The notes below the pieces were generated by a model. That model did not search any database. It saw nothing but the letters and a program-made list of their open reading frames with translations, and was not told where the DNA came from. The translations under genes were made by a program, and so were the position numbers. Below, one piece after another: positions 62,329 through 64,000 of a DNA stretch of 64,000 bases; position 1 is the stretch's first letter, and every line of letters begins with the position of its first letter. This DNA is from Candidatus Freyarchaeum deiterrae. Lineage in GTDB: Archaea; Asgardarchaeota; Jordiarchaeia; Jordiarchaeales; Jordiarchaeaceae. The stretch covers positions 2,432,001-2,496,000 of the forward strand of contig CP147778.1 in the NCBI GenBank assembly GCA_037305845.1, given 5' to 3'.

Positions 62329-62598
62329 ATCCATTACAACATTTAAAATGAGCAATAAAAAGGAAGATTATGCCTCAGGTTTTTATTAGTGCATAACTTC
62401 TACATTGCGTAAATCCATATTATCTCCAATTAAGGAGGGGAGGGTGGAGATTATTGTCTCTCTACCTACCATAAATATCATCCACGAACATTTAGCTACA
62501 TAAAAAAATGAAAAAAAAGGGAAAGAGAAATAAATAGCAAAAAAGTAAAGTTCACAAACCAACAATAATGTTACTCAACAAAAAAGGTGAATGTAAAA

Positions 62599-64000
62599 AT
62601 GAAGCTATTCGAACCAATCAAGATAAACACCCTCCAGCTTAAGAATCGTATCACTATGCCCGCCATGCATCTGAATTATATGCGCGTATGATTACTTTGT
62701 ACGCGTAGGTTAAGCAGATCAGGGCTATGTGACTCAGCGATTAATTGATTTTTACGCTGAACGGGCAAAGAATGAGGTAGGTTTGATTCTTGTCGGAGGA
62801 TGTTACACGGAAGTCCTTGCGAAAGGATTCGATACAATGATTAGAATAGATCAGGATGATGCTATTCCAGGTCTTTCAAAACTCACTGAAGCTATTCATG
62901 AGGGTGGTGCCAAATGTGGTGCGCAGTTATACCACTCGGGAAGATACTCGTTTTCTGCGGTGATAGGTCAGGCGTCTGTGAGTGCTTCGGCAGTACAATC
63001 GAAATTCACAGGTGAGACTCCAAGGGCTCTGACGAAGGAGGAAATTCTACAAACTGAGGAGAATTTTGGTGAGGCTGCTCTTAGAGCTAAAAAGGCGAAT
63101 TTCGATGCTGTGGAGCTTATTGCTTCGGCGGGGTACTTGATTCCGCAGTTCCTTTCGCCGCTCACTAATAAGAGGGATGATGAGTATGGTGGTGATCTTA
63201 GTGCTAGGGCGCGGTTCGGTGTTGAGTGTATTCAGGCTATTAGGGACAAGGTTGGGGATGATTATCCCTTGATTATGCGGCTTTCTGGGGATGATATGAT
63301 GCCTGGGGGTAACACTTACCGGGAAGTCAGGGAATACGCTCCTTTATTCGCGGAGGCGGGTGTGGATATGTTTAATGTTACTGGGGGTTGGCATGAGTCG
63401 ACTGTTCCTCAGATTACTATGAATGTTCCGCGGGGTACCTATGTTTGGCTGGCTGAGAATGTTAAAGAGGTTGTTGATGTGCCGGTTATGGCGTGTAACC
63501 GGATTACTGATCCTTTGATGGCGGAGCAGGTTCTTCTTGATGGTAGGGCGGATCTTGTGGGTTTGGGTCGGGGTTTGCTCTGTGACCCGGAGTGGGCTAG
63601 GAAAGCTAAGGAGGGGCGTTTCCGCGAGATTCGGCAGTGTTTGGGTTGTAATCAGGGTTGCTTTGACCATGTGTTTGCACTTCAGCCTGTGGAGTGTTTG
63701 GCGAATGCTGCTGCGAGTCGTGAGGCGGAGTATCGGATTAAGCCTGCTGCTAAGCGTAAAAAGGTACTTATTATTGGTGGCGGACCGGGTGGTATGGAGG
63801 CTGCGAGGGTTGCGAAGCTTAGGGGTCATGATGTTACTCTTTACGAGAAGACTTACACGCTGGGCGGTCAGCTGAACCTAGCCGCGGCACCACAAGACAG
63901 GCGGGAGTTCAAGAATCTGGTTGACTACCTGTCTTATCAAATGAGTTTGCTCGGTGTTAACGTGGTTTTGGGTAAGGAGGTTACTCCTGATGTTGTCAAG
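62599..64000 (+). CDS. NADH:flavin oxidoreductase (Old Yellow Enzyme / FadH-like with Fe-S and FAD domains), spliced: join(62599-62679, 62714->64000), runs off the window
   Basis: MKLFEPIKINTLQLKNRITMPAMHLNY|ADQGYVTQRLIDFYAERAK...QLYHSGRY...GYLIPQFLSPLTNKRDDEYGG...CLGCNQGC...IIGGGPGG. Missing from the ORF track. Confidence 0.9.
62680..62713 (+). other. 34-nt BHB-type intron in the OYE/FadH-like gene
   Basis: atctg-AATT-AT^A-tgcgcgta-tgattactttg-tacgcgta-GGTT-AA^G-cagat: a complete helix-bulge-helix-bulge-helix. In-frame TGA inside. Confidence 0.9.

What the first reader, a model, noticed from the sequence alone, without database searches (positions are those of the whole stretch)
62665..62722. 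Textbook 34-nt BHB intron in an OYE/FadH-like reductase gene
Seen: outer helix AUCUG/CAGAU (5 perfect bp, exon-exon), central helix AAUU/GGUU, bulges AU^A and AA^G, inner stem UGCGCGUA/UACGCGUA. Excision converts a 30-codon dead end (UGA in the intron) into MPAMHLNY-ADQGYVTQRLIDFYAERAK, the normal OYE N-terminus next to the FMN-binding PAM motif. This is the clearest of the three cases and the best first experimental target.
Basis: partly seen in the sequence, partly recalled or inferred. Interest (0 to 1): 0.88.

Follow-up and report, generated by a model that had tools for sequence, protein, structure and literature searches.

The report
tRNA-type intron in Asgard fadH-like gene
A 34-base hairpin that breaks a flavin-reductase gene of an Asgard archaeon has the exact shape cut by the tRNA-splicing enzyme; a second, non-sister relative carries it at the same spot, and both broken genes are still under strong selection, so the messenger RNA is very probably spliced, which the papers I searched report inside a coding sequence for only one archaeal gene (cbf5).

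Summary
Window 62680-62713 is a 34-nt insert in a FadH-like (2,4-dienoyl-CoA reductase family) gene. It folds as a canonical hBHBh' motif: 5-bp outer helix, 4-bp central helix, two 3-nt bulges and an 11-bp inner stem. All three reading frames are closed inside it.

Thirteen orthologues have no insert, and they show that the predicted cuts restore ...HLNY|ADQGY... and a 660-aa protein, the length of all close orthologues.

New here: a second orthologue (L041/L042, two independent assemblies) carries a 34-nt insert at the same codon boundary. It is 47% identical in sequence but has the same BHB geometry, with three compensatory base-pair changes.

The two intron-bearing genes are not sisters; each has an intronless sister. 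The likeliest history is one old gain and two exact losses. Both interrupted genes evolve under purifying selection as strong as in their intact sisters.

The genome encodes alpha and beta EndA subunits, RtcB and archease.

No RNA data could be obtained, so splicing itself is inferred.

The scan has already reported BHB introns in mRNAs of this genome and of other Asgard genomes, and it read this same stretch in an overlapping window. In the papers I searched, only cbf5 has such an intron inside a coding sequence.

The parts
62512..62598 (+). Promoter and 5' leader. It includes an A/T-rich box AAATAAATA (62528-62536) and an SD-like GGTGA (62586-62590), 9-13 nt before the ATG.
   Evidence: About 96% identical to the intronless sister contig L036, and partly conserved in all genus-level orthologues, although synonymous sites have diverged. 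Calling it a promoter or ribosome-binding site is an inference from position.
62599..62679 (+). Exon 1: 27 codons, MKLFEPIKINTLQLKNRITMPAMHLNY. This is the first beta strand and the FMN-site P-A-M motif of the OYE barrel.
   Evidence: It matches Pfam Oxidored_FMN profile positions 1-22 and is collinear with the N-termini of all orthologues.
62669..62673 (+). Outer helix, 5' strand (AUCUG, exon 1). It pairs with 62715-62719.
   Evidence: Identical in the second intron-bearing gene; degraded in both intronless sisters.
62674..62677 (+). Central 4-bp helix, exon strand (AAUU). It pairs with 62708-62711.
62678..62680 (+). 5' bulge AU^A. The predicted cut lies between 62679 and 62680.
   Evidence: Canonical BHB geometry. 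This cut position is the one required by the intronless orthologues.
62680..62713 (+). The 34-nt intron. Stops fall in all three frames: TGA 62689-62691, TAG 62706-62708, TAA 62711-62713.
   Evidence: It corresponds to a clean 34-nt gap in the orthologues. It is unique in the genome and was not found in the 10 order-level relatives searched.
62681..62707 (+). Inner hairpin: 11-bp stem (62681-62691 with 62697-62707) and loop UUACU (62692-62696).
   Evidence: Compared with L041, three pairs change on both sides and three on one side while staying paired.
62708..62711 (+). Central helix, intron strand (GGUU).
62712..62714 (+). 3' bulge AA^G. The predicted cut lies between 62713 and 62714.
62715..62719 (+). 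Outer helix, 3' strand (CAGAU, exon 2). A further helix GCC 62662-62664 with GGC 62723-62725 extends it.
62714..64000 (+). Exon 2 (633 codons; runs past the window end to window-equivalent 64615). It holds the rest of the Oxidored_FMN barrel, the Cys motif C-x2-C-x3-C-x11-C and the FAD/NAD(P) Rossmann domain.
   Evidence: Pfam hit at E 5.7e-65, starting at profile position 29. Full length read from the genome. The sister protein aligns end to end with E. coli FadH 1PS9 at E 2.4e-128.

Best explanation
Window 62680-62713 is a bulge-helix-bulge (tRNA-type) intron in the pre-mRNA of a FadH-like Fe-S flavoprotein gene of a Freyarchaeia/Jordarchaeales-type Asgard archaeon.

Proposed mechanism:
1. 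The transcript folds so that exon bases 62669-62677 and 62715-62719, together with the intron, build an hBHBh' motif. Its geometry is that of a canonical pre-tRNA anticodon arm: a 5-bp stem with the intron after the sixth of seven loop bases.
2. The heterotetrameric (alpha-beta)2 splicing endonuclease cuts after 62679 and after 62713.
3. RtcB, helped by archease, joins the exons and probably circularises the 34-nt intron.
4. The joined mRNA encodes a 660-aa enzyme reading ...MPAMHLNY-ADQGYV....

Unspliced RNA can give only a 30-residue peptide, because the insert is closed in all three frames.

Shown here: the structure; the exact match of the cut sites to intronless orthologues; a homologous intron in a second lineage; purifying selection on both interrupted genes; and the presence of the enzymes. 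Inferred: cleavage, ligation and translation of the joined mRNA.

The most likely history is one gain before the four-lineage clade split, followed by two exact losses.
For: **1. Geometry.** The motif has 5 + 4 + 11 base pairs and two 3-nt bulges.

**2. Cut sites fixed independently.** Five same-genus genomes and eight other orthologues read HL(G/N)Y|A(D/E/Q) without interruption, and the DNA alignment shows a clean 34-nt gap. The chance of a 20-bp BHB at one given site and length is about 3e-8.

**3. Product length.** The spliced product is 660 aa, as are all close orthologues. Pfam places exon 1 at profile positions 1-22 and exon 2 from position 29.

**4. Second intron-bearing orthologue.** P0004 is carried on L041 (an ENA assembly) and L042 (a Logan assembly). 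It has a 34-nt insert at the same phase-0 site and gives a spliced 660-aa product with no stop.
- It folds the same way: dG -20.1 kcal/mol, z -2.6.
- The introns are 16/34 identical, whereas the 35 flanking exon bases of the 69-nt alignment are 30/35 identical.
- 93.5% of cells in the BHB register pair, against 17-50% in shifted registers.
- Three pairs change on both sides and four change on one side compatibly.
- The intron-to-intron alignment beats shuffles at p 0.0025.

**5. Selection.**
- G000 against its intronless sister L036: dN 0.052, dS 0.49, omega 0.11.
- Branch dN for G000 is 0.020-0.026, against 0.026-0.032 for L036.
- Branch dN for L041 is 0.023-0.025, against 0.031-0.033 for its intronless sister L040.
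- There are no other stops or frameshifts in 1980 nt.
- The promoter, leader and SD-like box are conserved.

**6. Exon bases constrained by the fold.** G000 and L041 share CAT CTG ... GCA GAT and GCC ... GGC at every helix position. The intronless sisters have CAC TTG ... GCG GAT and CAC CTA ... GCA GAC. G000's flanks give the best BHB of 14 orthologues tested.

**7. Machinery.**
- The alpha subunit has Tyr/His/Lys and a Lys aligned with A. pernix K44 of the specificity loop.
- The beta paralogue lacks the catalytic His.
- RtcB and archease are encoded.
- Asgard EndA is published as the (alpha-beta)2 type with the L1 loop.
- 92-95% of tRNA genes carry introns in complete Freyarchaeia and Atabeyarchaeia genomes.
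Against: - There is no RNA-level evidence.
- Only two distinct intron sequences exist, so the column-shuffle control on covariation is uninformative (69 of 500 shuffles reach the observed value). The structure was also derived from one of the two sequences.
- The central helix is weak: two G.U pairs in G000 and an A.C mismatch in L041. It is absent from the minimum-energy fold.
- BHB-like motifs are common by chance across the genome.
- A 50%-identical intact paralogue exists in G000, so loss of this copy might be tolerated.
Confidence: 0.88

Rival explanations
1. This is a dead gene. The 34 nt are a recent insertion or mutational scar that inactivated one of several OYE-family paralogues, and its BHB shape has no function.
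For: No RNA evidence could be obtained. An intact 50%-identical paralogue exists. BHB-like motifs are frequent by chance.
Against: The same-length insert at the same site has persisted in two lineages whose four-fold degenerate sites differ at 61%. Both genes keep omega near 0.1, and their branch dN is no higher than in their intact sisters. There is no second lesion in 1980 nt, and the leader is conserved. The chance of a BHB at this exact site and length is about 3e-8.
Confidence: 0.05
2. The intron is spliced, but its history differs. It entered the two lineages separately, by two independent gains or by lateral transfer and homing into the same site, rather than by one old gain and two exact losses.
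For: The tree ((G000,L036),(L041,L040)) has 100/100 support on both pairs, and every alternative is rejected (AU p < 0.001). That costs two events for separate gains against three for one gain plus two losses. The 20 exon bases upstream of the intron are identical in G000 and L041, which could be a co-conversion tract.
Against: Length, site and phase are the same. The intron alignment is significant (p 0.0025). Ten of 11 stem differences are transitions. The introns differ at 53% of sites, close to the 61% at four-fold sites, so a recent transfer is unlikely. The shared exon bases all lie in BHB helices, apart from one Pro codon. The 5' leaders of G000 and L041 differ. No donor copy was found.
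Confidence: 0.2
3. The gap is crossed during translation, by programmed bypass (as in T4 gene 60) or by frameshifting, without RNA splicing.
For: The gap is short, forms a hairpin and has a stop codon soon after the take-off region, which superficially resembles gene 60.
Against: There is no matching take-off and landing codon: TAT before the gap, TAA before GCA after it. All three frames are closed inside the 34 nt. The conserved features are those of a BHB.
Confidence: 0.01
4. This is a split gene that makes two polypeptides: a 30-residue peptide plus a 628-residue protein from GTG 62729. Alternatively, the insert is an assembly artefact.
For: A GTG at 62729 opens the downstream frame. In L041 an internal ATG was called as the start.
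Against: The downstream product would lack the first barrel strand and the P-A-M FMN motif. The two lineages would use different internal starts. The insert is present in a closed genome and in two further independent assemblies of another organism.
Confidence: 0.02

Closest known systems
cbf5 pre-mRNA intron of Crenarchaeota (Desulfurococcales and Sulfolobales; Watanabe 2002, Yoshinari 2006, Yokobori 2009, PMC2738675)
   Same: It is a BHB intron inside a protein-coding sequence. It occurs in hosts with a hetero-oligomeric EndA. Its distribution among relatives is patchy and has been interpreted as gain and loss.
   Different: The gene is different (a metabolic FadH-like reductase, not an RNA-modification enzyme) and so is the phylum (Asgard). 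cbf5 splicing was shown experimentally; here it is inferred. This case has two intron-bearing lineages, each paired with an intronless sister.
BHB intron in the 5' UTR of Haloferax volcanii HVO_1309 (PMC7714728)
   Same: It is an mRNA substrate of the archaeal splicing endonuclease, confirmed in vivo and in vitro.
   Different: It lies in the untranslated leader, so no reading frame depends on it, and the host is a euryarchaeon.
Canonical archaeal pre-tRNA intron at position 37/38
   Same: The geometry is identical: a 5-bp outer helix, a 4-bp central helix, two 3-nt bulges each cut after the second base, and an intron-only inner helix. The same enzymes are expected to act.
   Different: The host RNA is an mRNA, so the 'anticodon stem' is built from His-Leu and Ala-Asp codons. 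No tRNA or Rfam family matches in the window.
HAC1/XBP1 unconventional mRNA splicing in eukaryotes (from general knowledge, not tested here)
   Same: A short frame-changing intron is removed from an mRNA by a protein endonuclease, and in animals the exons are joined by RtcB.
   Different: The nuclease is Ire1, not the tRNA endonuclease. The signal is twin stem-loops, not a BHB. It is a regulated stress response.
Transposon-born BHB introns reported by this scan (e1-5513978, e1-5396476)
   Same: Small BHB introns in Asgard genes.
   Different: There is no target-site duplication here: the 7-mers match at 3/7 in G000 and 4/7 in L041. No other copy exists in the genome, and none was found in the relatives searched. 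A 15-nt repeat in L041 is not significant.

Membership tests
Archaeal BHB (EndA-dependent) intron | Two 3-nt bulges on opposite strands, separated by a 4-bp helix | tested here: met
   AU^A and AA^G flank AAUU/GGUU. In L041 the helix AACU/GGCU has one A.C mismatch, a relaxed form.
Archaeal BHB (EndA-dependent) intron | Flanking helices on both sides (h and h') | tested here: met
   A 5-bp outer helix with a 3-bp extension, and an 11-bp inner stem. Both appear in the minimum-energy fold. The L041 fold has the same helices.
Archaeal BHB (EndA-dependent) intron | Cutting after the second base of each bulge gives the correct mature sequence | tested here: met
   The junction TAT|GCA corresponds to TAY GCN in 13 intronless orthologues. 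The product is 660 aa, as in the orthologues.
Archaeal BHB (EndA-dependent) intron | Structure conserved while sequence diverges in homologous introns | tested here: met
   The introns are 47% identical and 93.5% of cells pair. Three pairs change on both sides and four on one side; shifted registers pair at 17-50%. Only two sequences exist, so the power is low.
Archaeal BHB (EndA-dependent) intron | The host encodes a splicing endonuclease and an RNA ligase | tested here: met
   EndA alpha carries the catalytic Tyr/His/Lys and the K44-equivalent Lys. EndA beta lacks the catalytic His. RtcB and archease are present.
Archaeal BHB (EndA-dependent) intron | Excision and exon ligation observed in RNA | not testable with these tools
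The spliced junction was not found in the metagenome contigs.
2,4-dienoyl-CoA reductase / enoate reductase class of the Old Yellow Enzyme family | N-terminal Oxidored_FMN barrel, a 4-Cys Fe-S motif and a C-terminal FAD/NAD(P) Rossmann domain | tested here: met
   Pfam PF00724 at E 5.7e-65, plus Pyr_redox_2 and NAD_binding_8. CLGCNQGC...C and GGGPGG are seen in the translation. The sister protein aligns over its full length to E. coli FadH 1PS9 at E 2.4e-128. The substrate is unknown.
MITE / transposon-derived BHB intron | Target-site duplication and multiple copies of the element | tested here: not met
   The flanking 7-mers match at 3/7. No second copy exists in the genome, and none was found in the 10 order-level relatives searched.
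Programmed translational bypass (T4 gene 60 type) | Matched take-off and landing codons flanking the gap | tested here: not met
   TAT precedes the gap and TAA precedes GCA after it; no match in either lineage.

The most novel reading that the evidence does not exclude
This intron is an old, vertically inherited mRNA intron of a lineage close to eukaryotes. It has been kept for a long time by selection on RNA shape, strongly enough to fix the synonymous sites of the neighbouring codons, and it has been deleted exactly at least twice. It would be one member of a genome-wide set of protein genes that this archaeon must splice with its tRNA enzymes, meaning routine protein-catalysed mRNA splicing in a prokaryote, with intron gain and loss visible between sister species.
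Probability: 0.55. Interest if true: 0.85.

Novelty: new member of a known kind. Interest (0 to 1): 0.74.

Why it matters
In the papers I could search, an EndA-type intron inside an archaeal coding sequence is documented only for cbf5. Recent work on Asgard introns covers tRNA genes only.

This locus has an unusually clean comparative design: two intron-bearing genes, each with an intronless sister. That design does three things.
- It shows, without RNA data, that the interrupted gene stays functional.
- It shows that a BHB can constrain the synonymous sites of flanking codons.
- It shows that such introns are lost exactly.

This makes the gain-and-loss dynamics of protein-gene introns in the closest prokaryotic relatives of eukaryotes directly testable.

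There is also a practical point. Gene callers truncate these genes. P0004 was called 22 residues short, and exon 1 of G000 would be missed.

Tried and rejected
- **RNA evidence.** The spliced-junction 30-mer gave 0 hits in metagenome contigs.
- **More intron-bearing orthologues.** Three degenerate-pattern scans gave 0 hits. The L041 type lives in the ENA and Logan collections, which those scans do not cover.
- **Other copies of the intron.** None in the genome, and none found in the 10 order-level relatives searched.
- **My own genome-wide screen.** I scanned for BHB motifs and then asked whether excision joins two ORFs. The screen was not specific: 3.7% of BHB hits pass, against 4.2% of random positions. 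It neither supports nor tests the scan's earlier counts of mRNA introns.
- **Gly-to-Asn change as an adaptation to the intron.** Rejected as stated. The intronless sister L036 also has Asn, and in L041 the Asn codon pairs worse than Gly would.
- **Origin by target-site duplication or local duplication.** The resemblance is 11/15 in L041 and not significant (p 0.44). Similarities between the introns and exon 2 fall at different places in the two lineages, so I treat them as chance.
- **Bypass, frameshift, split gene, artefact.** See the rival explanations.
- **OYE paralogue flagged with an in-frame TAA.** It is an ordinary 329-aa gene, and the TAA is its own stop codon.

Full report
**What is there**

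The window is G000:C1:2432001-2496000 of a closed 3.58-Mb archaeal genome with 40.7% G+C.

An ORF starts at ATG 62599, behind an SD-like GGTGA. It reads MKLFEPIKINTLQLKNRITMPAMHLNY and then runs into UGA at 62689-62691. A second frame is open from 62714 for 633 codons, past the end of the window.

Pfam places the first piece on Oxidored_FMN profile positions 1-22, and the second from position 29 onward (E 5.7e-65). A Rossmann FAD/NAD(P) domain follows. The closest intact relative aligns end to end with E. coli 2,4-dienoyl-CoA reductase 1PS9 (E 2.4e-128). The substrate is unknown.

The 34 nt between the two pieces (62680-62713) carry a stop in each of the three frames. Read-through or frameshifting cannot bridge them.

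**The fold**

The parts list gives the coordinates.
- The minimum-energy fold is -26.6 kcal/mol, z -3.78, and none of 200 shuffles folds as well. It contains the outer helix, a 3-bp extension and an 11-bp inner stem around a 7 x 7 internal loop.
- Closing that loop into the 4-bp central helix with two 3-nt bulges costs 3.3 kcal/mol.
- The geometry is that of a canonical pre-tRNA anticodon arm with its intron at position 37/38.
- No tRNA gene and no Rfam family is present in the window.

A caution from my own scan: BHB-like motifs are common. With G.U pairs allowed and 20 or more paired bases, the genome holds 34 against about 16 expected. The shape alone proves little. What matters is that site and length are fixed independently.

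**Independent definition of the cut sites**

Five genomes of the same genus carry the gene uninterrupted, at 87-90% protein identity. The DNA alignment shows one clean 34-nt gap. At the codon level, CTG AAT TAT | GCA GAT corresponds to CTT GGA TAC GCG GAT. Eight further orthologues agree.

The spliced product is 660 aa. The full-length close orthologues in the protein database, named FAD-dependent oxidoreductase or 2,4-dienoyl-CoA reductase of Freyarchaeota/Jordarchaeaceae, are also 660 aa. The exceptions are P0004, called short (see below), and a partial sequence.

For one given site and length, the null rate of a BHB this good is about 3e-8.

**A second, homologous intron**

One close orthologue, P0004, was called 22 residues short. 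Its contig exists as L041 (an ENA assembly) and as L042 (a Logan assembly).
- Exon 1 reads MKLFEPIKIRGMQLKNRVVMPAMHLNY.
- A 34-nt insert follows at the same phase-0 site.
- Exon 2 then starts with ADKG.... The spliced product is 660 aa without a stop.

The RNA folds with the same architecture (dG -20.1 kcal/mol, z -2.6). A relaxed scan finds no better alternative BHB there.

The two introns are 16/34 identical, and the 35 flanking exon bases of the 69-nt alignment are 30/35 identical. Their alignment beats shuffles at p 0.0025. In the BHB register:
- 93.5% of cells pair, against 17-50% in shifted registers.
- Three inner-stem pairs change on both sides (U-A to C-G, C-G to U-A, U-A to C-G).
- Four pairs change on one side and stay paired.
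- Three are broken in L041, including an A.C in the central helix.

Ten of the 11 stem differences are transitions. All five differences in the loop are transversions. With only two sequences the shuffle control has no power (69 of 500 shuffles reach the observed value), and I do not lean on it.

**History**

A nucleotide tree gives ((G000, L036), (L041, L040)) with 100/100 support on both pairs. All 14 alternative arrangements are rejected (AU p < 0.001). L036 and L040 lack the intron.
- The introns differ at 53% of sites, similar to the 61% difference at four-fold degenerate sites between G000 and L041. This fits vertical descent.
- I therefore favour one gain before this clade split, followed by two exact losses.
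- Separate gains or lateral transfer remain possible (about 0.2).
- The origin is open. There is no target duplication and no other copy. A repeat-like resemblance between the intron end and the exon end in L041 is not significant.

**Is the gene alive?**

- G000 against L036: dN 0.052, dS 0.49, omega 0.11.
- Non-synonymous change is split evenly or slightly in favour of the intron-bearing branch, in both pairs:
  - G000 0.020-0.026 against L036 0.026-0.032.
  - L041 0.023-0.025 against L040 0.031-0.033.
- A gene dead for these branch lengths would show roughly ten times more.
- The 87 nt before the ATG are about 96% identical to L036.
- The exon bases that build the BHB helices are identical in G000 and L041 at seven synonymous positions and differ in both intronless sisters. 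By my rough estimate the chance of this is about 0.004. This is an inference, not a tool result.

**Machinery**

There are two EndA paralogues.
- One is most similar to chain B of PDB entries 3p1z and 3ajv, which I recall (not checked here) as the A. pernix catalytic subunit. It has the catalytic His, and a Lys aligned with K44 of the specificity loop.
- The other lacks the catalytic His.

RtcB and archease are present. The (alpha-beta)2 type with the L1 loop is published for Asgard archaea.

**Literature and earlier notes**

The papers I could search report coding-sequence BHB introns only for cbf5 (PMC2738675), and a 5'-UTR case in Haloferax (PMC7714728). Work on Asgard introns treats tRNA genes only.

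This scan has already reported mRNA BHB introns elsewhere in this genome and in other Asgard genomes, and it read this same stretch in an overlapping window. I did not verify those counts.

**Verdict**

- RNA-level proof is missing.
- This is a new member of a known kind, and its sister-pair design is unusually informative.

Noticed in passing
window 62674-62676, with L036, L040 and L041: Asn (AAY) at the codon that forms the exon strand of the central helix occurs only in the two intron-bearing genes and in L036, the intronless sister of G000. The other close orthologues have Gly: 10, L037 and L040, and P0001, P0003, P0008. This may be a footprint of a lost intron in L036. However, in L041 Asn pairs worse than Gly would, so the link is unexplained.
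   Followed up: partly
window 62599-62778 versus L036 1501-1680: The first 60 codons have dS 1.38, against 0.26-0.76 in the rest of the gene. The 87 nt just upstream of the ATG are about 96% identical between G000 and L036.
   Followed up: no
L041 1467-1481 and 1501-1515: In L041 the 3' end of the intron resembles the end of exon 1 (11/15 identical). A direct repeat of this kind could mediate an exact 34-nt deletion at the DNA level. It is not significant by shuffling.
   Followed up: partly
whole genome G000: ARAGORN finds only 17 tRNA genes in a complete genome, many with odd 'introns'. This fits heavily interrupted tRNA genes as published for Freyarchaeia and Atabeyarchaeia.
   Followed up: no
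That scanner requires all four central pairs and at least 4-bp outer and inner helices. They are probably relaxed motifs. I did not examine them.
   Followed up: no
G000:C1:911408-912355 (-): An OYE paralogue was flagged with an in-frame TAA. It is an ordinary 329-aa gene, and the TAA is its own stop codon.
   Followed up: yes
G001:C117:4952-6235 (-): In a same-genus genome, a paralogue of this gene (52% identity) shows one in-frame TAG. It could be another intron, a pseudogene or a sequencing error.
   Followed up: no
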